Positions 19,759-48,395 of a DNA stretch of 64,000 nucleotides are shown one piece after another (position 1 is the stretch's first letter; every line of letters begins with the position of its first letter). Source of the stretch: an uncultured Candidatus Saccharibacteria bacterium (lineage in GTDB: Bacteria; Patescibacteriota; Dojkabacteria; J137). The notes under the pieces are model-generated. The model had not been told where the DNA came from, ran no database searches, and saw nothing but the letters and a program-made list of their open reading frames with translations. The position numbers were made by a program, and so were the translations under genes. The stretch spans positions 366,759 through 430,758 of the forward strand of contig CAZLOI010000001.1 of NCBI GenBank assembly GCA_964561155.1, in the 5' to 3' direction.

Positions 19759-20916
19759 TTATTTCAAATAAAACTCAGAAGGTGATTCCCAGGCAACCTG
19801 GCTTGAGTTTAAGAAGTTATGATGGAAAATTGTTACTACGCAGGTAGATAGAACTAGAAGAATAACGAGGATTATCTTAGTAGTAAAGGATATTCTGTTG
19901 TTAAGAAAGTAAAGGAATGGTAACAATACCAAAGGAATTATAGGCATAAGAACTCTACCCGAAACAATAAAGTCACTAATCTTTCCCTCAAAGAAGTTGT
20001 AAGGGTACATTGAATACAGAAGAACTACTGTAGCGACAGGTAGTATAACTGCCCATTTAAGTCTGTGTTTGAATAATGGTAGTCCAAGAAGCATAAAAGG
20101 ATAAACTGTTAAGAGAAGCATCAGGTACCTAGGTAAGTTATGTACTATGTTTGCAAGATCAAAGACTTCTTCACTAGATAAGCTATAGCCTGATGCAAAG
20201 AATGAACCATATAAATCTTTGTTTATAAGCATTATGATTGCTCCAATAGGTATTGCACCAGCTGCTATGTATACCACTCTCTTGTACTCCTTGTTATATA
20301 TAGCGTATCCAAGAGTAAATGCGAAAAAGATTAGTAGATTTGTATACCTTATTAATGTTGCAAACCCTATTATTAGGCCTGCAAGTATATTCCAAGCTAC
20401 TCTATTCCTTGATTTAATGAATACATAGAGAAATAGGTTGATAAAAAGCAGAGAAAAAGTTTCTGAAAACAGTGTTCTTGAGAAGTAAATAAAAGGTGGA
20501 TAAAAGATGTATAAGATAACTAAAAATTCATTCAATTCTAGTAATCTTATAATCCTGCTAAAGATTATCGCGCTTAGGATAAAACTTAGGAATACAATAA
20601 CAAACGCGTATTGTTCCCCTAAGATAATGCTTGGAGTTAGTAAGAGAGATGCTCCTAGGTTATATTTAGAGACACACTCCCCTGTTTTTGATTCGTGTAG
20701 TCCTGGATACTCCGAAATATTGCTACAAGGAGTCTCAAGCTTTCCAGAAAGTATTCTTACACTATTGGCAAGATATTGATTCTCATCTATAGAGATATAC
20801 TTGGTTGGATAGAAGATTAGGAACAAAAGTGTAAGGAAAGTTATTCCCGCTATTAAGTACTTATTTGCTTTTAAGATTTTAACTAAGCTCTCCTTCATGC
20901 TGCTATTGTACAACAA
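19759..20916 (-). CDS. GT-C fold membrane glycosyltransferase-like protein (ArnT/PMT_2-like), paralog of the gene at 62289-64000
   Basis: About 10 TM helices. First extracytoplasmic loop carries a DE motif (ISIDENQYLANSVRILSG), as in ArnT/PMT-family GT-C enzymes. Shares YGSFFASGYSLSSEEVFDLANIVHNL with YGTFLASGYSTLRGEDFVSTSNILNIL of the 62289 ORF. Confidence 0.5.
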   Translation of the reverse strand: MLYNSSMKESLVKILKANKYLIAGITFLTLLFLIFYPTKYISIDENQYLANSVRILSGKLETPCSNISEYPGLHESKTGECVSKYNLGASLLLTPSIILGEQYAFVIVFLSFILSAIIFSRIIRLLELNEFLVILYIFYPPFIYFSRTLFSETFSLLFINLFLYVFIKSRNRVAWNILAGLIIGFATLIRYTNLLIFFAFTLGYAIYNKEYKRVVYIAAGAIPIGAIIMLINKDLYGSFFASGYSLSSEEVFDLANIVHNLPRYLMLLLTVYPFMLLGLPLFKHRLKWAVILPVATVVLLYSMYPYNFFEGKISDFIVSGRVLMPIIPLVLLPFLYFLNNRISFTTKIILVILLVLSTCVVTIFHHNFLNSSQVAWESPSEFYLK

Positions 20917-20976: not shown

Positions 20977-21570
20977 TTAATCTTCTCTTCTTTTCTTTTT
21001 ATTACTCTCCATTACTGCTTCTATTCTATGCTTGATTCCCATTTCAAGTTCTCCAATAACTGGGATACTGTAAACTACTATAGCTGTTATTAGAGTTGCC
21101 ATAATACTTACTAGAACACCTTTATTAGCTTCATTAATTGCCTCTGCTGGAATATAAGCAACGCTTTTCCCTTCCTCCTCTACAACATAGTATGACTCAG
21201 TCGCATTTCTACCTTCAGTATAGAATTGAACGTTTTGCTCTATAAAAGCAAATCCAGTACAAACGAATACAACCATAACAACAACCAAAGTCTCGATGAT
21301 CAAAACGAATTCGTTGTCTTCCATTTCCTCTCTCTTACTTCTCCATTTAGCTAGTCTTTCAACGTTAGTCTTAAGAGTTAGGATTATAGATCTGTAGATT
21401 AAGATGAAAAGGATTGCGTACATTGTCATTCTGAAAATTATCTTGATCACTTCATCAGTAATCATATCCTCTCCAGCCTTTAGATTTGGAACTGTAGCTA
21501 ACCAGTAAACAAGGAATCCAAAAATAACTGTACTTCCCCAAGTGTATAACATGAACGCTAGTTTTCTCAT
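20977..21570 (-). CDS. membrane protein (possibly VanZ-like)
   Basis: 4-5 hydrophobic helices. FAFIEQNVQFYTEGRNATESYY loosely resembles the VanZ DE.HQ...R block. Weak. Confidence 0.35.
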   Translation of the reverse strand: MRKLAFMLYTWGSTVIFGFLVYWLATVPNLKAGEDMITDEVIKIIFRMTMYAILFILIYRSIILTLKTNVERLAKWRSKREEMEDNEFVLIIETLVVVMVVFVCTGFAFIEQNVQFYTEGRNATESYYVVEEEGKSVAYIPAEAINEANKGVLVSIMATLITAIVVYSIPVIGELEMGIKHRIEAVMESNKKKRRED

Positions 21571-22242: not shown

Positions 22243-22245
22243 AAT

Positions 22246-24030
22246 TTGATGAATCCAGCATTACCTAAATCACAAAACATAAGAGGTTTAAATTCAATCC
22301 TTGACGCCCTTTTGATCAAAGGTAAGATCACTCAAGATGATTATAACCTTATAAAGCTGGAATCTGTAAATAAGTCTGTAAGTGCTGATCAGATAATAAA
22401 AGAGAAGGCAATTGTTGATTCAGATGACATTGCGAAGCTCTACTCCGAAATGAAAGGTATCAGTTTTATAGACCTTTCCTCCATTGCAATCAATATAGAT
22501 GTCCTTCATAAATTAGAAAAAGAAGCTGCTAAAGCTTCTATGGCTATAGTATTCGAGGAACAGCCAAGTAGATTCAAAGTTGCAATGAGAGACCCTCTTG
22601 ATCTACAGAGAATCAAATATCTAGAGGCTATTCTAGGAAAGAAGATTGAGGTCTACTACGCCTCAGAAGATGATATTACTACTGTCTTGGAATCTAAGTA
22701 TGGTGCTCAGATAACAAAGGATGTTGATGAAGCGCTGGAACAAGTAGGAGGCGGTGATAATCTTCTAGATATTAATGCTCTACAGGAGAATGAAATAACA
22801 AAGGATCCTCAGAATGCTCCTATAATCAGGATCGTAAACATGATCCTAGACTATGGAATCAAGAATAAGGCATCTGATATTCACATTGAATCAAGAGAAA
22901 AGAAAGTTATAGTTAGGTTTAGAGTTAGAGGTATCCTAAGTGAAAAGCTAACTATTCCTAAGAAACTTCTTCCTGCAGTAGTATCAAGAATAAAGATTCT
23001 TTCAAACCTAAAGATAGACGAACATAGAGTTCCTCAGGATGGTAGGTTCCAAGTTAAGTTAGGTGAAGTGATTGTTGATATCAGAGTTTCAATAATGCCT
23101 AATATTTACGGTGAAAAGATTGTTATGAGGCTTCTTTCAAAGACTGAAAGTGTATTGAAGCTTGAAGAACTAGGAATGAGGGGAAGTAACTACCTAAGAA
23201 TGAGGGAGGCTCTAAAAAAGACTCAGGGTATAGTTATTGTGTCTGGACCTACAGGTTCTGGTAAGACACAGACTCTTGCTAGTTCACTAAAGATTTTGAA
23301 TACTCCTGAAGTTAATATAATGACACTTGAAGATCCTGTAGAAATTAGAGTTGATGGTGTTACGCAGGTACAGATTAATCCTGATGTAGGTCTAACTTTT
23401 GCCTCTGGATTACGATCTTTCTTAAGACAAGACCCGGATGTAATCATGGTTGGAGAAATTCGAGACTCAGAGACAGCAGGACTTGCTGTTCAATCAGCCC
23501 TAGTTGGTAGGTTGGTTCTCTCTACTTTACACACAAACAGTGCCTCAGGATCATTTGTGAGGCTTCTTGACATGGGTGTAGAACCGTTCCTGCTTTCATC
23601 TACAGTCAATGTAATATTGGGTCAGAGACTTGTTAGAGTTCTATGTGAATGTAAGCAACAAAAGGAAGCTACAGCTGAAGAAATGGCAGAATTGCATGGA
23701 GAACTAGATGTTCTTAACTCTTTTGATGTATTTAACCCTGATCATACAGTTAAGGTTCACTTCGACAAAGCAGTTAAGAAACTAATTATATACAAGCCAA
23801 AAGGCTGTCCAAAGTGTAATGATACTGGATATATCTCTAGAACTGGAATATTCGAGGCTTTGAAAATGAGTGAATCTATATCGAGAGCTGTTATTCAGAA
23901 GAAGACTATACAGGAAATCCAAGATCTTGCAATTTCAGAGGGAATGATTACAATGGTTCAAGATGGATACATTAAAGCTTTAGAAGGTATCACTACTTTA
24001 GAAGAAGTTATGAGAGTCAAAAATGAATAA
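22246..24030 (+). CDS. pilB: type IV pilus assembly ATPase PilB/GspE family
   Basis: N-terminal GSPII_E_N-like domain. Walker A VSGPTGSGKTQTL. Asp box TLEDPVEI. Walker B IMVGEIRD. His box LVLSTLHTN. Tetracysteine motif CECK...CPKC. The track start is TTG at 22246; the ATG is at 22249. Confidence 0.92.
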   Translation: MMNPALPKSQNIRGLNSILDALLIKGKITQDDYNLIKLESVNKSVSADQIIKEKAIVDSDDIAKLYSEMKGISFIDLSSIAINIDVLHKLEKEAAKASMAIVFEEQPSRFKVAMRDPLDLQRIKYLEAILGKKIEVYYASEDDITTVLESKYGAQITKDVDEALEQVGGGDNLLDINALQENEITKDPQNAPIIRIVNMILDYGIKNKASDIHIESREKKVIVRFRVRGILSEKLTIPKKLLPAVVSRIKILSNLKIDEHRVPQDGRFQVKLGEVIVDIRVSIMPNIYGEKIVMRLLSKTESVLKLEELGMRGSNYLRMREALKKTQGIVIVSGPTGSGKTQTLASSLKILNTPEVNIMTLEDPVEIRVDGVTQVQINPDVGLTFASGLRSFLRQDPDVIMVGEIRDSETAGLAVQSALVGRLVLSTLHTNSASGSFVRLLDMGVEPFLLSSTVNVILGQRLVRVLCECKQQKEATAEEMAELHGELDVLNSFDVFNPDHTVKVHFDKAVKKLIIYKPKGCPKCNDTGYISRTGIFEALKMSESISRAVIQKKTIQEIQDLAISEGMITMVQDGYIKALEGITTLEEVMRVKNE

Positions 24031-25156
24031 TCCTACGCAAGTAAAACAAGATCCAGAAGCAGTAAAGACATATACGTCTCCTGTTCAACAGGCAGATAGA
24101 GTTCTAGCACTTGATGATGTAATGACATTAGCAATACAGACAAAGGCTTCAGATATTCATATTACCGCTAACTACAAGCCAATCTTAAGGGTAAATGGAG
24201 TTCTGCAGCAGTTGAAGTATAGAGAGCTCTACCCAGAAGAAGTATTTAACTTCGCAAAGCAGATTCTCGCTAACAAGAAAGATATTGATTTTGATAATTT
24301 CTATCAGTTTGATACAACATACGTACTAAATGGACGAAGATTTAGAGTAAATATATTTAAACAAAGTGGTAACTACTCCATAGCTGCTAGAGTTATCTCT
24401 GATCAGATACCTCAGCTTGATATATTAGGTCTACCACCAGTTATAAAAGATTTCGCTAGATTCCCAAATGGATTGGTTCTACTAACAGGACCTACAGGAA
24501 GTGGTAAATCAACTACTCTAGCTTCTTTGATCAACTTAATAAATGTAACTGAAGCGAAACATGTAATAACTTTAGAGGATCCTATCGAATACATCTTCCC
24601 AAAAGGACAGTCCTTGATAGAGCAAAGAGAATATTTGAGCGACTTTGAGTCTTGGCCTAATGCCCTCAAAGCGGTCTTAAGACAAGATCCAAACATCGTT
24701 TTATTGGGCGAAATGAGAGATTCGGACACCATTGAATCTGCAATCAGAATAGCAGAAACTGGTCATTTGGTCTTCGCTACCCTGCACACGAATAGCGCAG
24801 CTCAAAGTATTGACCGTATAGTGGACATATTCCCTGGTGAAAAACAGGATCAAATCAAGGTTCAATTAGCTGCAGTTTTACAAGCTGTGGTATCACAGAA
24901 ACTTGTTAAGACAGTTCAAGGTAGTCAAAAGTTAGCTACAGAGGTTTTGATAGCAAACTCTGCTGTTAGAAACACAATTAGAGAGAGCAAGGGTTATCAA
25001 TTAGACAACATAATTCAAACAAGTAATGATCTTGGTATGCAAAGTCTAGAGAAGTCTCTTGTTAATCTTGTTAAGCAAGGTCACATTACTATGGAAACTG
25101 CACGTAATAATGCAAATAAGCCTGCAGATATAGAATCGTTATTAAATAGAAGCTAA
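24023..25156 (+). CDS. pilT: type IV pilus retraction ATPase PilT
   Basis: Walker A LLTGPTGSGKSTTL. TLEDPIEY. VLLGEMRD. FATLHTNSAAQSIDRIVD. 377 aa and lacks the Cys cluster, typical of PilT. Confidence 0.9.
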   Translation: MNNPTQVKQDPEAVKTYTSPVQQADRVLALDDVMTLAIQTKASDIHITANYKPILRVNGVLQQLKYRELYPEEVFNFAKQILANKKDIDFDNFYQFDTTYVLNGRRFRVNIFKQSGNYSIAARVISDQIPQLDILGLPPVIKDFARFPNGLVLLTGPTGSGKSTTLASLINLINVTEAKHVITLEDPIEYIFPKGQSLIEQREYLSDFESWPNALKAVLRQDPNIVLLGEMRDSDTIESAIRIAETGHLVFATLHTNSAAQSIDRIVDIFPGEKQDQIKVQLAAVLQAVVSQKLVKTVQGSQKLATEVLIANSAVRNTIRESKGYQLDNIIQTSNDLGMQSLEKSLVNLVKQGHITMETARNNANKPADIESLLNRS

Positions 25157-26388
25157 TGGCTGAATATAGATACATAGCATTAACAAACTCTGGTCAATCA
25201 GTTGAAGGTGTAAAAACCGCAGACTCAGAACAGGAGGTTATAGAGTCTCTAAAGTCTGGAGGATTAAACCCAGTATTAGTTGAAGAAAAGCTTACATTTA
25301 ATCTAAATAAAGCTTTCAATGTAGAAATTGGAGGTATCTCTCTTGCAGAGAAGGTTATATTCACAAAGCAGCTTTCTACAATGATTGGAGCTAATATCCC
25401 AATCGTACAAGCACTAGATATTTTGATACAGCAGACAGAGAAGACATCTATCAAAGAAAAATTTGTAAGAGTATATAAATCTGTAGAATCTGGAATAAGT
25501 TTGTCTGAAGCATTCAAAAAAGAAGGTGGGTTACTAAGTGAAGTACAGCTAAATCTTATGATGGCTGGTGAGAAATCAGGTAATCTTACTGAAATGATGC
25601 AGAAGATTGCAGATGACTTAGAGAAATCAAAGAAGTTGAAAGGAAAGGTAACAGGTGCTCTAATCTACCCTGCAATCATTATGGTTGTAATGGTTGGAGT
25701 AATGTTTGTGATGATAACCTTCATGGTTCCTCAGGTTAAACAACTCTACACTTCTCTTGGAGAAGATGAGCTTCCATTCATTACACAATTCTTGGTTACA
25801 ATCGGTGAATCATTTGGAAGGATCGAAACTATAATTATAATGATTATTCTTGGTGTTTCTGCGTATGCAGGGTATCGATACTACAATGGTACTCCAGCAG
25901 GAAGACTTAGAATCGATAGTTTCAAGCTACGAATCCCAGTATTTGGTAACTTATCTAGAAAGGTTGAAGTTGCAGAATTCTGTAGAATTATGTCCATGCT
26001 TCTAGGAAGCGGTATTCCTGTTATCGATGCTATGGATATTACAGGTAAAGCGATAGGTAATTCGATATTTAGAGAAATTGTGCTTAAGACAAAAGAAGAC
26101 GTTACTCTAGGTAATTCAATTTCTATTGGAATGGCGAAATATAATAAGAAGAATGGCTTCCCTCCTATCTTAATTAGAATGCTCGCTACTGCAGAAGAAT
26201 CCGGTAAGGTTGGATTTGTACTTGATGATCTTTCTAAGTTCTATCAAGAAGAAGTTGATCAAATAGCTGGTAATCTTTCGAAGTTAGTTGAACCTATTAT
26301 ATTAGTTGTAGTAGGACTAATGGTTGGTTTCTTGGCTGTTGCGATATATTTGCCAATCTATCAGGTTGGACAAATTGTTGGTCAATAA
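25156..26388 (+). CDS. pilC: type IV pilus inner-membrane platform protein PilC/GspF
   Basis: Two repeated GspF domains, each followed by TM helices (QLSTMIGANIPIVQAL...; RIMSMLLGSGIPVIDAM...). 410 aa. Confidence 0.88.
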   Translation: MAEYRYIALTNSGQSVEGVKTADSEQEVIESLKSGGLNPVLVEEKLTFNLNKAFNVEIGGISLAEKVIFTKQLSTMIGANIPIVQALDILIQQTEKTSIKEKFVRVYKSVESGISLSEAFKKEGGLLSEVQLNLMMAGEKSGNLTEMMQKIADDLEKSKKLKGKVTGALIYPAIIMVVMVGVMFVMITFMVPQVKQLYTSLGEDELPFITQFLVTIGESFGRIETIIIMIILGVSAYAGYRYYNGTPAGRLRIDSFKLRIPVFGNLSRKVEVAEFCRIMSMLLGSGIPVIDAMDITGKAIGNSIFREIVLKTKEDVTLGNSISIGMAKYNKKNGFPPILIRMLATAEESGKVGFVLDDLSKFYQEEVDQIAGNLSKLVEPIILVVVGLMVGFLAVAIYLPIYQVGQIVGQ

Positions 26389-26480
26389 TTTGTTGCTTCA
26401 AATTCTTTATCTCCCTATTGTACTTTACTTTTGATTCAATTAAACTGGATTTATATCTTATTTTTTATCTTAATTAGAAT

Positions 26481-26927
26481 ATGCATAAACAAAAAAATGC
26501 ATTCACACTAATAGAGTTGATGGTAGCTATGGGTATCATCGGTGTATTAGTAACTCTTTCTCTTTTGGGCATTACAATTGTTCAGAGATCATTAAGAGAT
26601 ACTCAGAGAAGAGACGCTGCAAGTGCTGTAAGGTTAGCTATAGAAAGTTTCTATACAGGTAGTGCTGTTTATCCATCTAGTCTTTCACAGGCTTCAGCTG
26701 GAACAGTTATGAACATAGGAACTTCTTCTGTTGCTCTTAACGGACCTGCAAAGGGTTGTCCAACAGCTACATTAACTGTAACTGGTGAATGTACTATTTA
26801 CTGTTATGTTTCAAACTCTCCAAACAGCGTTTACGCATTTGGTGCTCAACTAGAGGGTGGTTTGCAACAGTTCGGTAACTCAGGAAGTTCTTGTAGTATT
26901 ACAACTAACAGAGTTCCATACAACTAA
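26481..26927 (+). CDS. pilA: type IV pilin (class III signal peptide), candidate major pilin
   Basis: MHKQKNA/FTLIELMVAMGIIGVL has the prepilin leader with Glu+5. Ala rather than Gly at -1. 148 aa. First pilin after pilC and preceded by a 92-bp AT-rich spacer. Confidence 0.75.
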   Translation: MHKQKNAFTLIELMVAMGIIGVLVTLSLLGITIVQRSLRDTQRRDAASAVRLAIESFYTGSAVYPSSLSQASAGTVMNIGTSSVALNGPAKGCPTATLTVTGECTIYCYVSNSPNSVYAFGAQLEGGLQQFGNSGSSCSITTNRVPYN

Positions 26928-26930
26928 TAT

Positions 26931-27329
26931 ATGAAAGGATTTTCTTTAATAGAAATTCTGATCTTTATGGGAGTAGCAGCATTATTGCTGCTACTTTCCA
27001 TTACAGGTCTACAGATACTAAGTAAGAACAGCAGAGATAGCGAGCGAGTTTCGATTGCTGGAGAAATGAATAATCTAATTAACAAGTTTAGGAGAGAGAA
27101 ATTGAAATACCCATCTAATATTGAAGTATCCCTTCAGACGAGCCTGTTTTCAATAACGGGAATGACTGATAGTATAGCTTTGAATGGACATTTAAGATCA
27201 GAATCAACTACCACAAATGGTGGAACTAAATATATTTATACTTATGTAAGCTCTTCTGAATATCAGTTGTGTGTTGCCCTAGAGTCTGGTACATACAAGG
27301 GATTCGGGACTGCAGCTTGTCCGAATTAG
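26931..27329 (+). CDS. type IV pilin-like protein
   Basis: MKG/FSLIEILIFMGVAALL has Gly-1, Phe+1 and Glu+5. 132 aa. Confidence 0.75.
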   Translation: MKGFSLIEILIFMGVAALLLLLSITGLQILSKNSRDSERVSIAGEMNNLINKFRREKLKYPSNIEVSLQTSLFSITGMTDSIALNGHLRSESTTTNGGTKYIYTYVSSSEYQLCVALESGTYKGFGTAACPN

Positions 27330-27332
27330 ACT

Positions 27333-28061
27333 ATGACCGAATTCTTTGTATCCATAATCTTTGGCTTTCTAACCCTTATCCTCTGCACTATTGCTTCGAA
27401 GATAATACATGGAGAAAGACTTCAATTTAGTACAAAAATGAATGCGAAGGATATCTTGGGTAGCTTTGTTTACTTTGGTTCTGGTTCATTATTTGTCTTT
27501 CATCTGTTCTTTATAAATGCGAGAGAGGAAATCTGGATCTATCTACCTATATATTTAATAGTATTTGTAGGACTTCTCTACTTAGCAATATGGGATATCC
27601 AAACATTAACTATTCCATCTAACTTCACAAACTTATTCTTGTTATTTGTAGTGTTGATAAACTTCGTTGTAGGGCTTTCAAGCTACTTAGAGTATCGAAA
27701 TGGTGGAGTTAATACCTTATCTTCGCTACCAATAGGAACACTTGGAAATATCTTAGGAGGTTTAGGTTTAGGAGGTATTATTTTTCTTCTACATAGATTC
27801 ACAAAAGGTAAGGGTATAGGGGATGGTGATATTTATATCTATGCAGCAGTTGGTTTTGCGCTAGGTATCCCTATGACTCTTGGATTTCTAATAATATCGT
27901 CGTTAGTTGGAGGGTTTGTAGCTCTTGTCCTAATATTGATATACTGGAAGGAGAGGCAAAAGGTTCTACAGACAAGGATCCCTCTACTCCCAATTATTCT
28001 TGTAGGGTATGTCTTAACCCTGTTACTACAAAATCACATATATTTAATTTGGGGTCTATGA
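27333..28061 (+). CDS. pilD: prepilin peptidase (A24 family)
   Basis: 8 TM helices. Catalytic Asp blocks LAIWDIQTLTIP and GIGDGDIYIYAAVGFALG (compare GGGDVKL). No N-terminal Zn-finger/methyltransferase extension. Confidence 0.8.
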   Translation: MTEFFVSIIFGFLTLILCTIASKIIHGERLQFSTKMNAKDILGSFVYFGSGSLFVFHLFFINAREEIWIYLPIYLIVFVGLLYLAIWDIQTLTIPSNFTNLFLLFVVLINFVVGLSSYLEYRNGGVNTLSSLPIGTLGNILGGLGLGGIIFLLHRFTKGKGIGDGDIYIYAAVGFALGIPMTLGFLIISSLVGGFVALVLILIYWKERQKVLQTRIPLLPIILVGYVLTLLLQNHIYLIWGL

Positions 28062-28570
28062 AAGCATTTACGTTAATAGAATTGATGCTGATGCTAGGAG
28101 TAATAGCTTTAACGCTAGCCTTAAGTATCATTGGTTTAACCAGATTTAGAGCTAGTATTGAATTAAATACTACATATACAAACGTAGTCTCTTTTATAAG
28201 TGAGATCAAGAACAAATCTACTAACGCTTTTGGAACAACAACTGGTGGTGTTCTTAACCCAGTAGATTTATTCACAGTCTCATTTAACTCAGGTGCAGTT
28301 TCAGCCCTTGATTGTGATGGTAACTTTGATTTCACTTCATATTCTTGTGTAGCTTCAACAGAGCAATCTGTTAATACAGGAAGTGTTGCGGTATCAATCA
28401 CAGGATGCGACAACAGAATTGGTTTCAAAAGACTAACAGGAGATCTTGTAGCATTGAACGTAAATGGTGCTATTCAATCAAGTGGAGTTTGCACAGTGCA
28501 GCTTCAACATTCGTTTACAAACGAACTCAAAACAATTACTATAGACTTAGTTAAGAATACGTATAAATAA
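28049..28570 (+). CDS. type IV pilin-like protein
   Basis: MGSMKA/FTLIELMLMLGVIAL leader with Ala-1 and Glu+5. 173 aa. Several Cys residues in the C-terminal half. Confidence 0.72.
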   Translation: MGSMKAFTLIELMLMLGVIALTLALSIIGLTRFRASIELNTTYTNVVSFISEIKNKSTNAFGTTTGGVLNPVDLFTVSFNSGAVSALDCDGNFDFTSYSCVASTEQSVNTGSVAVSITGCDNRIGFKRLTGDLVALNVNGAIQSSGVCTVQLQHSFTNELKTITIDLVKNTYK

Positions 28571-28571
28571 C

Positions 28572-29282
28572 ATGAAGAAGATTGTAACGAAGAATGCATC
28601 GGGTTTGGTAGAAGCACTAATAGTTATGGCGATTATCGGTACTACTCTAGTTTCTTCAATGCTTCTAGTATCACAAGGTTTTATAGAGGTAAGGAATAAT
28701 CAAACTGAAGATACTATTAATGGTGTGTTGGTACAGGTATTGAACAAGGTAAAGAATTCTAATTCGTTAGCGATATCTTTAAGCGAGTACAATACAATTA
28801 CAAATACATCTGAAAGGCACTTTTATCTTCTACCTAATGATGGTTTGAAGTTAGATACAACTCAGTCTCCAAGTACAGCTATAACTACATGCGATGAGGA
28901 TAGCGTATATAACATCGTTGTAAGTCAGGCAATTGTCACCTCGATAGTTCAGAACCTATGTGTTCAAGTAACTATCAAGAAGGTTACAGCAGGTAACAAC
29001 GAAAGATTCACAGGTTCAATTAACTATGTATATCAAATAAACGAAGAAGTTGTTGTATCTAAGTTAAATTTTGCAAAGTACAGTGAATTTGATGTATCTG
29101 GTTTGGCAGAAGGGACATCATCTGGAACTTCTGGTACAGCTGGTCCAACAGGAGGATCTGCAACAAGTACTACCACTACAACAAATACAACAGGGGATCG
29201 TACTGTAGGTGGCCCTGCATCAGTTGTTGGAGGATCAACAGATGATAATAATTCAGTAACAGGAGGGTCGGTTTCATTCTAA
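28572..29282 (+). CDS. minor pilin-like protein with Ser/Thr/Gly-rich C-terminal tail
   Basis: MKKIVTKNASG/LVEALIVMAIIGTT leader. The last 60 aa are low-complexity (TSSGTSGTAGPTGGSATSTTTTTNTTG...GGSTDDNNSVTGGS). Confidence 0.7.
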   Translation: MKKIVTKNASGLVEALIVMAIIGTTLVSSMLLVSQGFIEVRNNQTEDTINGVLVQVLNKVKNSNSLAISLSEYNTITNTSERHFYLLPNDGLKLDTTQSPSTAITTCDEDSVYNIVVSQAIVTSIVQNLCVQVTIKKVTAGNNERFTGSINYVYQINEEVVVSKLNFAKYSEFDVSGLAEGTSSGTSGTAGPTGGSATSTTTTTNTTGDRTVGGPASVVGGSTDDNNSVTGGSVSF

Positions 29283-29767
29283 TGAAAACTATAAAGAAAT
29301 ATAAAGCATATTCGTTGGTGGAAGTCATAGTTACCTTAGGTATTATAGGTATCTTGATAGTCATGCTTTTTAATGTGATTCTACTAGCCCTAAGATCCAA
29401 CACTATTATTGCAGGAAGGAGTTACGTTAGAGAGCAAACATCATCAGTATTAAGTCAGATATCTAGAGAGATTCGAAATGCTGAAGAGGTTGAAAATTGT
29501 GCAGCAGGTTCCTGTGAATTTAGGCTTAATGGAAAGGATATTAAATGGGAATCATGTGGACTTAGCATTTGTAGGTATGAGAACGCACAGCTTTCCTTAC
29601 AAACTTCTGATACAATAAACATGAACTCACTGGTATTCGATGTGTATCCTGGAGTAAACCAAAATTCAGTAGTTCTAGTAACAATAACTGCTGGACATTC
29701 AAATCCTACATTGAATATAACGAGTGTAATAAATCAAATCTCAACAACAACTAGAAACTATGAATAG
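29282..29767 (+). CDS. minor pilin-like protein (PilV/PilW-like)
   Basis: MKTIKKYKA/YSLVEVIVTLGIIGIL leader with Glu+5 and Ala-1. 161 aa. Confidence 0.7.
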   Translation: MKTIKKYKAYSLVEVIVTLGIIGILIVMLFNVILLALRSNTIIAGRSYVREQTSSVLSQISREIRNAEEVENCAAGSCEFRLNGKDIKWESCGLSICRYENAQLSLQTSDTINMNSLVFDVYPGVNQNSVVLVTITAGHSNPTLNITSVINQISTTTRNYE

Positions 29768-30692
29768 GATGTATAAAGGACAAATACTGATAATAACGTT
29801 ACTAACACTAACAATTGTAGGAGTTCTAGTAACGACTATAGTTGTTGTAACTAGAAGAGACTTTAACCAGAGTGCCAATACAGAGAAATACGAGAGACTA
29901 TACAATACTGCAGATAACAATCTACAGAAGGTACTAGCTGATTACGCCTCTCCAACAGCTAATTTATCAACACTTGCTGCTTCTCAGTTACCAAATGGTA
30001 CATGCACAACATTGGTAAATCTAAACTACTATAAATGTACGTATTCAAATCAGGAGTTAACAGGGGGTTTTGTTTCTACAACTACTCTATTCGTTGAAAA
30101 CAAGAAAGAGATTAACGACTATGTACTTAAAAAAGATGCTGCCCTTATTCTAGATATATCTGGATATTTAGGTGGATTCTCTTTTCAATGGGACAGACCT
30201 AATGTAGCTTTGGAAGTAGGTATAGTTTTCTCGAATAACTTACCAAATGGAAGGCTTAATATAACAAGAGATATTTATGACAGGAATGGGACAAAAGTAA
30301 TAGATTCTCAGGCACAACCAGGATTTACAAACTTATTTCCGTTTATTCAAGACGCAGCAGATCCTACAAGAGGATTCTTTTTGGACATATCAGATGTATT
30401 CAATACACCAGGGGCAGTACCAGGTTATATAAATGCAAATCCATACTCTCCTTTCTATCTTGTTATTATCCCTAGATCTGACACAGCAAATGATGAAATC
30501 ATTCTAGATGTGACTCCTGACAACCCATCCGGATTAAAAGCACAGGTTCGGGAATTTAGATCTTTAGGTGAAGACTTACAAGATTCAACTGGTCCAAAAG
30601 CAAGTTTGATAACTCGTGTCCCATTGTTGCCAGAAATTCCTGCTGCAATATTGAATGGTATAACTACAAGTGGTAACCTAGTATTACAGTAA
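29760..30692 (+). CDS. PilX-like minor pilin / pilus tip-associated protein
   Basis: N-terminus KGQILIITLLTLTIVGVLVTTIVVVTRRDFNQSAN matches the PilX_N pattern (G.aLivaL.lL.vl....a...tr.e.q.a.N). No Glu+5. 310 aa. Confidence 0.6.
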   Translation: MNRMYKGQILIITLLTLTIVGVLVTTIVVVTRRDFNQSANTEKYERLYNTADNNLQKVLADYASPTANLSTLAASQLPNGTCTTLVNLNYYKCTYSNQELTGGFVSTTTLFVENKKEINDYVLKKDAALILDISGYLGGFSFQWDRPNVALEVGIVFSNNLPNGRLNITRDIYDRNGTKVIDSQAQPGFTNLFPFIQDAADPTRGFFLDISDVFNTPGAVPGYINANPYSPFYLVIIPRSDTANDEIILDVTPDNPSGLKAQVREFRSLGEDLQDSTGPKASLITRVPLLPEIPAAILNGITTSGNLVLQ

Positions 30693-30702
30693 AATTTTTT
30701 AT

Positions 30703-31746
30703 ATGGCAAATCTACCAGAATTCATAGGAATAAATATAGGTAATTACAGCATTAAGGCTGTAGAGCTTGCTCTTGCAGGTAATAAGTCATTCGAATTAGT
30801 AACGCTAGGTAAGGTTCCCTCTGCAACAGGAACTATAGAAAATATTAGTGTAGGAAATATTTCTGGACCGATATCAGATCTACAAAAGCTTATTAGAGAC
30901 ACAGGTTTTAAGACAAAGAACGTAGTGTTCTCAGTTCCTGAATCATTAGTCTTTTCAAGACTGATTACTATTCCAAAGGTAAAGGATGAAGAAGTTGATA
31001 ATGCAATTAACTTTGCTATGCGAAATCTTATTCCTGTTCCTTTAGAAAATCTTAATATTGCTTACGTATTCATAGAAGAGCGAAAAACTGATACCAATAT
31101 CTTCACTAGTTGGTATGTAGTAGGTATTCAGAAGAATCTTTCAGATAGATTTAAGGAGCTAGCAAGAGGTGCAGGCCTTAACCTATTAGCAATTGAAACA
31201 GAAGCAGTAGCGATTATTAGAAATATTAACTATAACTACTCAGATACAGTTAAGAAGAACTATCTAGTACTAGACTTAGGAGGTGAGTACTCGAATCTAA
31301 TAATATCTAGAAATGGTGCAGTACTCTACTCACAGAATATCTCAACTGGCTCAAATGCTATGACAAAAATTATAGCTACAGACCTTTCAGTAGATATTGC
31401 TCAAGCAGAAGCTTACAAAGAGAAAATTGGTTTGGACTTTACTCTTGGAGGAGGAAAGGTTTCAAAGACAATTGAGCCAATAGTTCAAATTATCGTGTCC
31501 GAAATTCTACGAACCGTATCATACTACAGCGACCGAATCGGAGGTGAACCTTTGTCCGAATTGTATATTACAGGTGGAGGCGGTGCTCTTCCAAAGCTAA
31601 CTCAATACTTAAGTGAGAAAACTAACTTGAAAGTATCTTTAGTTGAAAACTTCAAGAAAATTAAGGTAAAGGGTGAACTTAAAGCAAATCAATTGAGCTT
31701 TAACGTATCTACTGGCTTAGCACTTAAAAATTTAGAACTAATCTAA
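30703..31746 (+). CDS. pilM: type IV pilus assembly protein PilM (actin-like ATPase fold)
   Basis: FIGINIGNYSIKAVEL start. ASKHA-like second half (LVLDLGGEYSNLIISRNG; YITGGGGALPKL). Confidence 0.8.
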   Translation: MANLPEFIGINIGNYSIKAVELALAGNKSFELVTLGKVPSATGTIENISVGNISGPISDLQKLIRDTGFKTKNVVFSVPESLVFSRLITIPKVKDEEVDNAINFAMRNLIPVPLENLNIAYVFIEERKTDTNIFTSWYVVGIQKNLSDRFKELARGAGLNLLAIETEAVAIIRNINYNYSDTVKKNYLVLDLGGEYSNLIISRNGAVLYSQNISTGSNAMTKIIATDLSVDIAQAEAYKEKIGLDFTLGGGKVSKTIEPIVQIIVSEILRTVSYYSDRIGGEPLSELYITGGGGALPKLTQYLSEKTNLKVSLVENFKKIKVKGELKANQLSFNVSTGLALKNLELI

Positions 31747-32303
31747 TGGCTACTCAAAAGCAATTCAAGTTTAACTTGGTTACACCAATAACCAAAGAAG
31801 AGATTACAACTATAGAAGATAGAGATAATACTCTGGTTAATTCTTTTATACTAATCTTTGCTGGAGTATTCGTTTTCTCTGCCCTTACACTACTCAGTTC
31901 CCTATTAATTGAACCAGCGTTAGTGAATTCAGCAGCAGCACTAAGGAATAAACAGGCATCTTTAGCCCAATACAACCAAGTTAAGCTACTAAACGGAGAG
32001 TTTGTAATCAAAGCAAGAGCCCTTAGCCCCCTACTTGATCTAGATATTAAACCTGCAAAGCTTGTAGAGATAGTTGATAAGCTAGTTTCAACGTTGTCTT
32101 CAGAGGTAGATATAGAGAGTTTTGGTAGAGAAAGAACAGGAAACTTTGTTATTCAGGCGGATCTTAACGACTTTAGTAGTTTAGAGCTTGTTCAGGATTT
32201 CTTTAGGGAGAACAGCGAGGATGTAGGTAATTTGTTCTTTACTCAGGTTGCTAATACCGATGGAAGCTTATTCGTTTCAATGACTTTTGATATTCTAATT
32301 TAA
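31746..32303 (+). CDS. pilN: PilN-like bitopic inner-membrane pilus alignment protein
   Basis: Single TM (FILIFAGVFVFSALTLLSSLL) after a short cytoplasmic N-terminus. Position and 1-nt overlap with pilM. Confidence 0.5.
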   Translation: MATQKQFKFNLVTPITKEEITTIEDRDNTLVNSFILIFAGVFVFSALTLLSSLLIEPALVNSAAALRNKQASLAQYNQVKLLNGEFVIKARALSPLLDLDIKPAKLVEIVDKLVSTLSSEVDIESFGRERTGNFVIQADLNDFSSLELVQDFFRENSEDVGNLFFTQVANTDGSLFVSMTFDILI

Positions 32304-32986
32304 TGGAAAAAAGCAGAGCAAAGACAATTAGAATTTATATAGTACCAATAATAACGTTGGTAGTTTTCGTAGGTATAATCATATTCTTAATAGTACCTAA
32401 GATTAGTAGTATCTTTGGTGGCCTTGGTCAAATTGGACTAGATAATCAAGCTATCGCAGATACAGATGCTATGGCTACAGTTCTTGAGAACTTGGAAGCA
32501 AGGAAGCCAGCTCTTGAACTAGATCTAGAGAACTTGAATACTATAGCTTCCGGTGGAACAACTAGGGTAGTTGAGTTCAGAGACAAGATTGCAGGTGTTT
32601 TAACTAACTTTGATCTAACTATCGAGAGTCAAAACATTAGCGAATCTTCTTTTATAAATGCAGATCTTCAGGAAGATGTAATTCTAATTGAGATTCCATT
32701 CGATTTCGCAGTAACGGGTACACTTGATGATACCAAAGCCTTTATTAACTCTTTAAGTAATATTGATGACTTCGCTATCGTTAAGGAGCTAGATATCACT
32801 AAAGGAGATGGTAATCTATGGATCATGAATATAATCCTGATTAAGTATCAGTTTGGAACAAACCCAGATGAAGACGAGTTGTACCTAAGTGTAGATACTC
32901 AAGCCTCTGTACCAGACAATATTAGAGGCTACTTAGACTCTAGAGTTAACAATGCACTCCCTTCTATTGAGGAATCAGAGCTTTAA
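32303..32986 (+). CDS. pilO: PilO-like bitopic inner-membrane pilus alignment protein
   Basis: Single TM (IYIVPIITLVVFVGIIIFLIV). Coiled-coil segment, then a periplasmic-type domain. Last gene of the pilMNO-like triplet. Confidence 0.45.
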   Translation: MEKSRAKTIRIYIVPIITLVVFVGIIIFLIVPKISSIFGGLGQIGLDNQAIADTDAMATVLENLEARKPALELDLENLNTIASGGTTRVVEFRDKIAGVLTNFDLTIESQNISESSFINADLQEDVILIEIPFDFAVTGTLDDTKAFINSLSNIDDFAIVKELDITKGDGNLWIMNIILIKYQFGTNPDEDELYLSVDTQASVPDNIRGYLDSRVNNALPSIEESEL

Positions 32987-33007: not shown

Positions 33008-33035
33008 AAAAAGACCCTTTCGGGTCTTTTCTTTT
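33008..33035. terminator. bidirectional rho-independent terminator between pilO (+) and rpsP (-)
   Basis: AAAAAAGACCCTTTCGGGTCTTTTCTTTT: a perfect 6-bp GC-rich stem with a 4-nt loop, flanked by an A-run and a T-run. Confidence 0.8.
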
Positions 33036-47864: not shown

Positions 47865-48395
47865 TTAGTTTGATCTAATTATTAGACTTAAATTTCTTCC
47901 TTCTCTAGTAACATCTGTTGTTAACTTAGAAAAAGTTAAACTCTTTTCTTTAATTTTAGCCATTGTCTCGTACATTAATGCTGGGCTAGTCTTTCCTCTA
48001 GCTTTAAGAGTCAACTTTGCAGTTCCTCCTCCCTTAACAATAAAGTCCTTAACCTTCTCTAATCTAATTTCCATGTCTCTATCTTGAATGTTTGGATAAA
48101 ACCACCATTCCTTTGTTTCAACCTTTGTCTTAGCGTTTTTCTTTAATTTCTTAATCTTTTCGTACTTAGCTTTAGACAATTCTTCAATCTTTGCAACAGG
48201 ATTCTCTGGATTATCTGATACCAAGATCAGGTCCAATTCTCTCTCTCTTGCCATAGCCAAGGCTACTTCTCTCTTTATCTTCCCTAAATTATTACCTTCG
48301 TCATCGATCAGTATAAACTCCGGAAAGCTTATCCTATCATTGTAAATGAAATTAACATTGTACTTAGGGGTACTCTTTTTTCCTCTTCTTACAAT
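47865..48395 (-). CDS. infC: translation initiation factor IF-3, full frame with probable non-AUG (ATT/ATA) start
   Basis: The track ORF (47865-48260) begins at an internal TTG/Met. The same frame is open upstream to a stop at 48410-48408 and encodes ...[61 protein letters not shown]. This matches the IF3 N-domain (NEEIRAREVRLIDEDGEQLGV...ALQLAEEAGLDLVEV). No ATG, GTG or TTG exists in the extension. An ATT at 48395 (or ATA at 48407/48401) gives about 177 aa. Confidence 0.8.

What the first reader, a model, noticed from the sequence alone, without database searches (positions are those of the whole stretch)
22246..32986. Complete secretin-less type IV pilus operon with internal pilD and six pilin-like genes
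The 13 collinear genes are pilB-pilT-pilC, two pilins, pilD, four minor pilins and pilM-pilN-pilO. Many junctions overlap by 1-20 nt, indicating a single translationally coupled unit. No pilQ, pilP or other outer-membrane component is present, consistent with a monoderm envelope. The cluster lies close to ssb, recR, ruvCAB and recG. That fits a DNA-uptake or host-attachment pilus in a reduced-genome organism.
Basis: partly seen in the sequence, partly recalled or inferred. Interest (0 to 1): 0.55.

Follow-up and report, generated by a model that had tools for sequence, protein, structure and literature searches.

The report
Ordinary Patescibacteria type IV pilus operon
This is an intact 13-gene type IV pilus operon without an outer-membrane pore, in an uncultured Dojkabacteria (CPR/Patescibacteria) genome; such operons are a published hallmark of this group, so the finding is correct but ordinary.

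Summary
Window 22246-32986 (+) carries 13 collinear, tightly packed genes: pilB, pilT, pilC, two pilins, pilD, four more pilin-like genes, and pilM, pilN, pilO. An intrinsic-terminator-like hairpin follows at 33009-33030. Seven of the 12 junctions overlap, by 1-13 nt rather than 1-20. No secretin, pilP, comEC, comEA or dprA was found among the scanned ORFs of the 64-kb window.

The organism is a Candidatus Dojkabacteria (WS6, CPR/Patescibacteria) MAG. The same 13 genes, in the same order and with the same flanking genes, are intact in three other Dojkabacteria genomes (PilB identity 87, 67 and 63%).

This is a type IVa-like, monoderm-style retractile pilus machine. It has the same parts list as "T4P locus one" of Saccharibacteria TM7x, which was assigned to twitching and whose tested pilin genes could not be deleted.

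The literature already reports that co-localised PilB/T/C/M/N/O/D plus pilins, without PilQ, are widespread in CPR (Méheust 2019; 2026 review). It also shows roles in motility and host attachment, and comEC-dependent transformation.

These are housekeeping genes 3-20 kb away in a conserved core-gene neighbourhood.

Minor local features: a peptidase-only PilD, Ala at the -1 position of four prepilins, and a divergent PilN.

Verdict: real, correctly read, already known. Interest is low.

The parts
22246..24030 (+). pilB, the extension ATPase. The start is probably the ATG at 22249, giving 593 aa as in public records.
   Evidence: T2SSE 1e-124 plus MshEN. The best PDB relatives are PilB of Myxococcus and Geobacter. 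Walker A lies at 334-341, and the tetracysteine motif is C467/C469/C521/C524. The protein is 100% identical to P0001.
24023..25156 (+). pilT, the retraction ATPase
   Evidence: TIGR01420 PilT/PilU family, 417 bits, above the cutoff of 319. The best PDB hits are PilT of Aquifex, Geobacter and Pseudomonas. An AIRNLIRE-like motif, AVRNTIRE, lies at 314-321.
25156..26388 (+). pilC, the inner-membrane platform protein
   Evidence: Two T2SSF repeats, 7e-59. Full-length matches to GspF and PilC in NCBIfam.
26481..26927 (+). pilin 1, the probable major pilin (148 aa)
   Evidence: N_methyl 1.5e-6. The leader is MHKQKNA|FTLIE with E5. It has 4 Cys in the C-terminal domain. It is the first pilin after the only sizeable intergenic gap (92 nt). 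The first ~45 residues are nearly identical in the relatives.
26931..27329 (+). pilin 2 (132 aa)
   Evidence: Leader MKG|FSLIE with E5, and 2 Cys. Weak matches to N_methyl and GspG.
27333..28061 (+). pilD, a prepilin peptidase with the peptidase domain only
   Evidence: Peptidase_A24 1e-9 at residues 75-198, with no DiS_P_DiS N-domain. D88 and D166 are invariant in four Dojkabacteria orthologues. The protein has only one Cys.
28049..28570 (+). minor pilin-like 3, with weak GspH-like matches. The start is more likely the ATG at 28058.
   Evidence: Leader MKA|FTLIE with E5, and 4 Cys. Weak NCBIfam matches to GspH and PpdA-type proteins.
28572..29282 (+). minor pilin-like 4, with a Thr/Ser/Gly-rich C-terminal tail
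   Evidence: Leader ...KNA|SGLVE with E5, conserved as KA|SSLVE in relatives. 2 Cys. No family match.
29282..29767 (+). minor pilin-like 5
   Evidence: N_methyl 1.3e-5. Leader KYKA|YSLVE with E5, and 4 Cys.
29760..30692 (+). minor pilin-like 6 (310 aa), which lacks E5 and so resembles GspK/PilX
   Evidence: Leader MYKG|QILIITLL. Residue +5 is Ile or Leu in all four genomes. It is the largest pilin-like protein and has 2 Cys. The GspK/PilX analogy is an inference.
30703..31746 (+). pilM, the actin-like cytoplasmic alignment protein
   Evidence: PilM_2 2.7e-34 over its full length. The PDB hits are PilM of Myxococcus, Thermus and Pseudomonas.
31746..32303 (+). pilN-like gene, a divergent lineage-restricted family
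   Evidence: No Pfam hit on its own. The AF2 model (pLDDT 63) shows a TM/coiled-coil helix followed by an alpha-beta-beta-alpha-beta-beta domain. The top Foldseek hits are GspL periplasmic domains, with Thermus PilN at rank 16. The family consensus N-terminus is FxFNLLP. 2 of 64 family members hit Pfam PilN, best 8e-6.
32303..32986 (+). pilO-like gene
   Evidence: Weak Pfam PilO match, 0.014. The top Foldseek hits for the AF2 model (pLDDT 59.5) are PilO of Myxococcus (3jc8_O) and of P. aeruginosa (2rjz, 5uvr). JGI names a 72%-identical homologue PilO.
33009..33030 (+). terminator-like hairpin at the operon end, between the convergent pilO and rpsP
   Evidence: A 9-bp stem, a 4-nt loop and a T-rich tail, beginning 23 nt after the pilO stop. 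This is a consensus match only.

Best explanation
The cluster encodes a complete, retractile, type IVa-like pilus machine of a cell without an outer membrane, in a Candidatus Dojkabacteria (CPR/Patescibacteria) bacterium.

Proposed mechanism, inferred from the well-studied T4aP paradigm and shown here only at the level of gene content:
1. The prepilins insert into the membrane through their hydrophobic N-terminal helix.
2. The peptidase-only PilD removes the short leader after Gly or Ala at -1.
3. The four proteins encoded after pilD, including the E5-less 310-aa GspK/PilX-like one, form a priming or tip complex.
4. PilB drives assembly of pilin 1 (possibly with pilin 2) on the PilC platform.
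5. PilM, PilN and PilO scaffold the machine in the membrane.
6. PilT depolymerises the fibre to retract it.
7. The fibre crosses the wall without a secretin.

The most likely biological role is surface or host-cell attachment and twitching, as for T4P-1 of Saccharibacteria. A secondary role in DNA capture, feeding a ComEC channel encoded elsewhere, is possible.

The 13 genes most likely form one transcription unit ending at the hairpin at 33009-33030. An internal promoter in the 92-nt gap before pilin 1 is possible.
For: - Gene content and order.
- Family assignments.
- PDB relatives of PilB, PilT and PilM are all T4aP components.
- The PilT signature motif, the PilB Zn-Cys motif and the PilD aspartates are present.
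- Six class III signal peptides with an even number of Cys in each globular domain.
- PilN and PilO folds and transitive homology.
- The operon is intact and syntenic in three other Dojkabacteria genomes. The ATPases are the most conserved (63-87%) and the pilins the least (29-59%), which is the usual T4P pattern.
- No secretin was found in the window.
- Méheust 2019 reports co-localised PilB/T/C/M/N/O/D plus pilins, and no PilQ, across CPR.
- Xie 2022 shows T4P-driven twitching and host adhesion in TM7i.
- Wang 2023 finds T4P genes essential and transformation comEC-dependent.
- In Grossman 2025, TM7x locus one has the same parts list: pilB, pilT, pilC, pilMNO, pilD and five pilins.
Against: - There is no experimental evidence for any Dojkabacteria. 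No expression or pilus imaging data were examined here.
- The PilN and PilO models are of low confidence (pLDDT 63 and 59.5).
- PilB and PilC score slightly higher against the GspE and GspF models than against the PilB and PilC models, and below all equivalog cutoffs.
- Major versus minor pilin assignment is inferred only from gene position and conservation.
- The rest of the genome could not be searched, so a secretin, comEC or a second pilus system elsewhere cannot be excluded from these data alone.
Confidence: 0.78

Rival explanations
1. This is a dedicated competence (DNA-uptake) pilus, functionally linked to the nearby recombination genes. Its main job would be to capture DNA for ComEC-mediated import, either for nucleotide scavenging or for transformation.
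For: - CPR genomes are enriched in ComEC and mostly cannot make nucleotides.
- Saccharibacteria are naturally transformable in a comEC-dependent way.
- TM7x T4P locus two sits next to recAX.
- ruvCAB and recG flank the locus here and in AP024679.1.
- In Thermus, T4aP-type components serve competence. This last point is from general knowledge and was not tested here.
Against: - No comEC, comEA, comFC or dprA is in the window.
- The 'recombination' neighbours are universal housekeeping genes, 3-20 kb away, partly on the other strand and interleaved with gyrBA, holB, rpsP, rnc and nusB.
- Monoderm Com pili (ComG type) lack PilT and PilMNO, which are present here. ComGA and ComGB models score far below PilB/GspE and PilC/GspF.
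- In S. epibionticum, T4P genes are essential while comEC is dispensable, so the authors concluded the essential role of T4P is unrelated to competence.
Confidence: 0.15
2. This is a type II secretion-like pseudopilus that exports proteins rather than building a long fibre.
For: The PilB and PilC homologues score marginally higher against the GspE (544 vs 520 bits) and GspF (309 vs 300 bits) models. The four minor pilin-like genes resemble the GspH-I-J-K set, and the last one lacks E5 as GspK does. The top fold matches of the PilN-like protein are GspL periplasmic domains.
Against: - A bona fide PilT retraction ATPase scores above the curated cutoff, and T2SS lack PilT.
- A separate PilM is present rather than a GspL fusion.
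- There is no GspC or GspD in the window.
- T2SS is by definition an outer-membrane secretion system, and the CPR envelope lacks an outer membrane according to the literature.
- All GspE and GspF scores are below the equivalog cutoffs.
Confidence: 0.05
3. The operon is a decaying or non-functional remnant in a reduced genome.
For: PilN, PilO, PilD and several pilin-like proteins fall below family thresholds. No Shine-Dalgarno-like sequences lie upstream of the genes.
Against: All 13 ORFs are intact. Catalytic and signature motifs are retained. The order and reading frames are conserved in four genomes down to 63% PilB identity. Sequence divergence of pilins and PilN/PilO is typical for T4P.
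Confidence: 0.02

Closest known systems
T4P locus one (T4P-1) of Saccharibacteria: Nanosynbacter lyticus TM7x TM7x_00415-00475 and Southlakia epibionticum SEML1_0104-0116
   Same: The parts list is the same: pilB, pilT, pilC, pilM, pilN, pilO, pilD and several pilins in one locus. There is no secretin, and both hosts are CPR bacteria with a monoderm-type envelope. The Saccharibacteria PilB loci fetched here are the closest non-Dojkabacteria matches, at 43-44% identity.
   Different: The gene order differs. In the Saccharibacteria loci fetched here, pilM lies upstream of pilB-pilT-pilC-pilins. In Dojkabacteria, pilMNO lies at the 3' end and pilD sits between the pilin genes. This locus has six pilin-like genes rather than five. 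Function has been tested only in Saccharibacteria.
Type IVa pili of monoderm Firmicutes, such as the Bacillus, Clostridium and Streptococcus sanguinis pil loci
   Same: The overall operon layout is shared. Bacillus alkalicola locus L061 reads pilB-pilT-pilC-pilin-pilD-pilM. These systems also lack a secretin and have PilT and PilMNO. Ala at -1 of prepilins is known from streptococcal ComGC (from memory, not tested here).
   Different: PilB identity is only about 39%. The Dojkabacteria PilD lacks the N-terminal Cys-rich domain. The block of four minor pilin-like genes lies between pilD and pilM.
Diderm type IVa pilus machines (Myxococcus xanthus, Pseudomonas aeruginosa, Thermus thermophilus)
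   Same: PilB, PilT, PilC, PilM and PilO have their best solved-structure relatives there. The motifs for extension, retraction and the PilM-PilN interaction are shared.
   Different: There is no PilQ secretin, PilP, TsaP or PilY1 in the locus or window. PilN and PilO are highly divergent.
ComG competence pseudopilus of Bacillus and Streptococcus
   Same: Both are monoderm systems with a prepilin peptidase, an ATPase, a platform protein and several pilin-like proteins. The pilin N-termini give weak ComGC and ComGE matches.
   Different: ComG systems have no PilT and no PilMNO. The ComGA and ComGB models score far lower than the PilB/GspE and PilC/GspF models.

Membership tests
Type IVa pilus (T4aP) machinery | Extension ATPase of the PilB/GspE clade with an N-terminal MshEN/T2SSE_N domain and a Zn-binding tetracysteine motif | tested here: met
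   T2SSE 1e-124 plus MshEN 6e-12. Cys at 467, 469, 521 and 524. The top PDB hits are PilB.
Type IVa pilus (T4aP) machinery | Dedicated retraction ATPase PilT | tested here: met
   TIGR01420, 417 bits against a cutoff of 319. AVRNTIRE motif. PDB PilT hits at 2.5e-90.
Type IVa pilus (T4aP) machinery | Polytopic platform protein PilC with two T2SSF repeats | tested here: met
   T2SSF, two stretches, 6.8e-59.
Type IVa pilus (T4aP) machinery | PilM-PilN-PilO alignment subcomplex | tested here: met
   PilM_2 2.7e-34. PilN-like: the FxFNLLP family motif, a GspL/PilN-type fold, and 2 of 64 relatives hitting Pfam PilN. PilO-like: the top Foldseek hits are PilO. The PilN and PilO models are of low confidence (pLDDT about 60), so this is met on combined evidence rather than on any single test.
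Type IVa pilus (T4aP) machinery | Type IV prepilins with a short leader, Gly (or Ala) at -1, a hydrophobic N-terminal helix and Glu5 | tested here: met
   Five of six have E5 and leaders of 2-9 residues. The -1 residue is Ala in four and Gly in two. The sixth lacks E5, as GspK/PilX-type minor pilins do.
Type IVa pilus (T4aP) machinery | Bifunctional prepilin peptidase/N-methyltransferase PilD (A24 domain plus an N-terminal Cys-rich domain) | tested here: inconclusive
   The A24 peptidase domain and both Asp residues are present. The N-terminal DiS_P_DiS/tetracysteine domain was not detected and the protein has one Cys only. So peptidase activity is likely and methyltransferase activity is doubtful.
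Diderm T4aP / T2SS | Outer-membrane secretin (PilQ/GspD) with a pilotin or PilP | tested here: not met
   No Secretin or PilP domain was found in the window ORFs scanned. Absence from the whole genome could not be tested. The literature reports no PilQ in CPR.
ComG-type competence pseudopilus | ComGA/ComGB/ComGC-GG set without PilT or PilMNO, co-occurring with ComEA, ComEC and ComFA | tested here: not met
   PilT and PilMNO are present. The ComGA and ComGB models score 242 and 123 bits, below their cutoffs and far below the PilB/PilC-type models. No com genes are in the window.
CPR/Patescibacteria conserved T4P cluster (Méheust 2019; TM7x T4P-1) | Co-localised pilB, pilT, pilC, pilM, pilN, pilO, pilD and pilins in a CPR genome lacking pilQ | tested here: met
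   Gene content. Taxon. Conservation in three Dojkabacteria genomes. Published descriptions.

The most novel reading that the evidence does not exclude
The class-wide conserved block ruvCAB - gyrBA - holB-like - pil operon - rpsP/rnc - recG might reflect a functional coupling. In this reading the single Dojkabacteria T4P serves as the DNA-capture organelle of a competence and recombination pathway. It would be built from non-methylated, Ala(-1)-cleaved pilins processed by a peptidase-only PilD. That would make one machine serve attachment, motility and DNA uptake in this lineage.
Probability: 0.08. Interest if true: 0.4.

Novelty: already known. Interest (0 to 1): 0.15.

Why it matters
Type IV pili are thought to be the main organelle that CPR/Patescibacteria use to find and hold their hosts, and possibly to take up DNA. 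This locus adds a clean, complete and syntenically conserved example from Dojkabacteria, a class with no cultured member mentioned in the papers read here. It could serve as a reference for annotating the divergent PilN, PilO, PilD and minor pilins of that class. It does not change the current understanding. The arrangement, the lack of a secretin and the likely roles are already published for the phylum.

Tried and rejected
1. Exact-sequence look-ups of the window's PilT and PilC found no contig record. The source was traced instead through PilB (P0001) and the cluster tables, to an NCBI MAG contig of 462,563 bp with no accession returned.
It returned no Dojkabacteria, only Saccharibacteria and many unrelated phyla at 35-48% identity. 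Dojkabacteria synteny was obtained through the look-up of encoding contigs instead.
3. The word-indexed homologue searches for PilN and PilO gave only 7-8 close relatives, none with Pfam domains. An exhaustive profile search for PilN was needed.
4. The profile of 64 PilN-like proteins found no relative in the PDB by sequence.
6. The promoter scan found fewer sigma-70-like sites than shuffled sequence does (28 vs 41 ± 6). It gives no evidence for or against internal promoters.
7. T2SS, ComG-type and pseudogene readings were considered and rejected; see the rival explanations.
8. The idea that the recombination genes nearby are a functional signal was considered and rejected. They are housekeeping genes in a conserved core neighbourhood.

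Full report
**Observation.** The gaps between consecutive genes are -8, -1, +92, +3, +3, -13, +1, -1, -8, +10, -1 and -1 nt. Seven of the twelve junctions therefore overlap, by 1-13 nt. If pilin 3 starts at its ATG at 28058, that overlap falls to 4 nt. The only real gap is 92 nt, just before the first pilin gene. A terminator-like hairpin (9-bp stem, T-rich tail) lies at 33009-33030, 23 nt after the last stop and before the convergent rpsP. None of the genes has an obvious Shine-Dalgarno sequence. A TATAAT box lies about 20 nt upstream of pilB, inside the predicted 5' end of the divergent holB-like ORF. That ORF's start is probably over-extended.

**Gene identities.** The Pfam and NCBIfam scans give these assignments:
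- PilB: T2SSE 1e-124 plus MshEN.
- PilT: TIGR01420, 417 bits, above the curated cutoff of 319.
- PilC: two T2SSF repeats.
- PilD: Peptidase_A24, 1e-9.
- PilM: PilM_2, 2.7e-34.

The closest solved structures are T4aP components:
- PilB of Myxococcus and Geobacter.
- PilT of Aquifex, Geobacter and Pseudomonas.
- PilM of Myxococcus, Thermus and Pseudomonas.

Signature motifs are intact:
- PilB has Walker A and the C467/C469/C521/C524 cluster.
- PilT has Walker A, the His box and an AIRNLIRE-like AVRNTIRE motif.
- PilD has D88 and D166, which are invariant in four orthologues.

**Pilin-like genes.** All six pilin-like ORFs carry class III signal peptides:

| Gene | Leader and cleavage site |
|---|---|
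| pilin 1 | KNA\|FTLIE |
| pilin 2 | KG\|FSLIE |
| pilin 3 | KA\|FTLIE |
| pilin 4 | NA\|SGLVE |
| pilin 5 | KA\|YSLVE |
| pilin 6 | KG\|QILII |

The last is 310 aa and has no Glu5 in any of four genomes, which resembles GspK/PilX-type minor pilins. Each has 2 or 4 cysteines in its globular part, whereas the cytoplasmic components have none apart from the PilB zinc site. A six-frame motif scan of the whole window finds these six genes plus one spurious hit in a short minus-strand ORF.

**PilN and PilO.** These two calls could not be confirmed by direct family matches. PilN had none, and PilO matched at only 0.014. Close homologues are few. An exhaustive profile search found only 124 cluster representatives among 1.84 billion proteins, so this is a divergent, lineage-restricted family.

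Its alignment shows a conserved N-terminal FxFNLLP motif. I recognise this as the INLLP-type PilM-binding peptide of PilN; that recognition is from general knowledge. Two of 64 members hit Pfam PilN, the best at 8e-6.

The AlphaFold models are of low confidence (pLDDT 63 and 59.5). Both nevertheless show the expected layout: a TM/coiled-coil helix followed by a ferredoxin-like domain. Foldseek places the PilN-like model next to GspL periplasmic domains and Thermus PilN. It places the PilO-like model next to Myxococcus and Pseudomonas PilO. Together with their position directly after pilM, I accept both assignments.

**Surroundings.** The rest of the window is housekeeping:
- dnaX fragment, recR, ssb, ctpA-like protease, prfB-like release factor and dnaB.
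- yebC and ruvCAB.
- gyrBA and a holB-like gene.
- rpsP, rnc, nusB, rsmD-like and SpoU-type methyltransferases, and recG.
- ogt, a PBP1-type protein, rplT, infC, thrS, clpP and mutL.
- five tRNAs.
- an 1858-aa multi-domain surface protein.

No secretin, PilP, ComEC, ComEA or DprA domain appeared in the scanned ORFs.

**Taxon and conservation.** The best named PilB homologues are from Candidatus Dojkabacteria (WS6), a class of the CPR/Patescibacteria. The window's proteins are on record from an NCBI MAG contig of 462,563 bp. The same 13 genes occur in the same order and intact in three other genomes:
- GCA_963169855.1, PilB 87% identical.
- GCA_040006935.1, 67%.
- The closed 862-kb genome AP024679.1, 63%.

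Most of the neighbourhood is shared too. The gyrBA - holB-like - pil arrangement is seen in all three. rpsP/rnc follows downstream in two of them; the third locus ends just after pilO, so its downstream genes were not captured. ruvCAB lies upstream in AP024679.1. Identity falls from the ATPases (63-87%) through PilM/PilC to the pilins and PilN/PilO/PilD (29-72%), the usual T4P pattern.

**Comparison with other lineages.** In the Saccharibacteria loci fetched, the same components occur but pilM lies upstream of pilB-pilT-pilC-pilins. A Bacillus locus has the order pilB-pilT-pilC-pilin-pilD-pilM, much like the window.

**What it is and how it works.** This is a T4aP-type, secretin-less, retractile pilus system. 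The steps are inferred from the T4aP paradigm and shown here only as gene content and motifs:
1. PilD cleaves the prepilin leaders.
2. The four proteins encoded after pilD prime the fibre.
3. PilB, PilC and PilMNO assemble pilin 1, possibly with pilin 2.
4. PilT retracts the fibre.

The likely role is attachment to a host or surface and twitching, with a possible contribution to DNA capture.

A dedicated competence pilus is less likely for three reasons. PilT and PilMNO are present. No com genes are nearby. In S. epibionticum, T4P genes are essential while comEC is dispensable. A T2SS reading is contradicted by PilT, by a separate PilM and by the lack of GspC and GspD. A pseudogene reading is contradicted by the conservation.

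**What is already known.**
- Méheust et al. 2019 (PMC6744442) reported that PilB, PilT, PilC, PilO, PilN, PilM, PilD and pilins co-localise in numerous CPR genomes. They found no PilQ, consistent with a non-Gram-negative envelope, and found ComEC and DprA to be widespread.
- A 2026 review calls the T4P core gene set a hallmark of the phylum (PMC13293708).
- Xie et al. 2022 showed T4P-dependent twitching and host adhesion in TM7i.
- Wang et al. 2023 showed natural transformation and T4P essentiality.
- Grossman et al. 2025 described TM7x T4P locus one with the same parts list, assigned to twitching, and reported that its tested pilin genes could not be deleted.

The finding is therefore a correct reading of an already described kind of locus.

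**The argument from neighbouring recombination genes.** recR and ssb are about 20 kb away. ruvCAB is about 10 kb away. recG is 2.9 kb away on the opposite strand, with rpsP, rnc, nusB and two methyltransferase genes in between. All are universal housekeeping genes. In a genome of roughly 0.5-0.9 Mb, a 64-kb window is a large share of the chromosome. The block is conserved across the class, but that is expected for core genes. It does not by itself indicate a functional link to DNA uptake.

**Local peculiarities.** All are minor and none was pursued further:
- PilD has no recognisable N-terminal methyltransferase (DiS_P_DiS/tetracysteine) domain.
- Ala rather than Gly occupies the -1 position of four prepilins, and this is conserved in relatives.
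- Pilin 4 has a Thr/Ser/Gly-rich tail that is absent from the two more distant orthologues (L085, L086).
- The PilN family is unusually divergent.

**Verdict.** Interest is about 0.15.

Noticed in passing
window 54481-60057 (+): An 1858-aa protein with DUF2341, Laminin_G_3, Big_13 and CarboxypepD_reg/SpaA-like domains. It is a giant surface protein and a candidate adhesin of the kind common in CPR genomes.
   Followed up: no
window 27333-28061 (+): PilD has only the A24 peptidase domain. There is no DiS_P_DiS/tetracysteine N-terminal domain and only a single Cys. D88 and D166 are invariant in four Dojkabacteria orthologues. The pilins may be cleaved but not N-methylated.
   Followed up: partly
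window 26481, 28049, 28572, 29282 (prepilin N-termini): Four of the six prepilins have Ala instead of the canonical Gly at position -1 of the cleavage site. G/A variation at this position is conserved in the orthologues of three other Dojkabacteria genomes.
   Followed up: partly
window 28572-29282 (+), C-terminal ~60 residues: Pilin-like protein 4 ends in a Thr/Ser/Gly-rich low-complexity tail. The tail is absent from the shorter orthologues in L085 and L086 (188 and 179 aa). It could be a glycosylation region or a linker.
   Followed up: no
L085 12046-13752: The PilT orthologue in GCA_040006935.1 is 568 aa, against 377 aa here. This is either an N-terminal extension or a mis-called start.
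   Followed up: no
P0169: A 5975-aa predicted protein has three stretches matching the C-terminal domain of the PilN-like family (E 1.9e-31). It may be a gene-calling artefact or a giant repeat protein that reuses this fold.
   Followed up: no
window 47865-48260 (-): The IF3 (infC) ORF lacks the first ~28 positions of the IF3_N domain when started at ATG, GTG or TTG. This is consistent with the atypical start codon usual for infC.
   Followed up: no
window 48452-49960 (-): A ThrRS-like ORF of 502 aa matches only the tRNA_SAD and anticodon-binding domains at E<=0.001. No class II catalytic-core family is listed. The protein is short and divergent.
   Followed up: no
L086 6731-8642: In the closed Dojkabacteria genome AP024679.1, gyrB is called as two ORFs of 276 and 331 aa. 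This is either a split gene or a frameshift.
   Followed up: no
window 19759-20916 (-) and 20977-21570 (-): Two conserved membrane proteins with no family match lie between gyrB and the holB-like gene. The 385-aa one is a polytopic protein that resembles ArnT/PMT-type glycosyltransferases by eye only.
   Followed up: no
window 22243-22245: Only 3-6 nt separate the divergent holB-like ORF (TTG start) from pilB. A TATAAT box sits inside the predicted holB-like 5' end. Relatives have gaps of 45-88 nt, so the holB-like start here is probably over-extended.
   Followed up: partly
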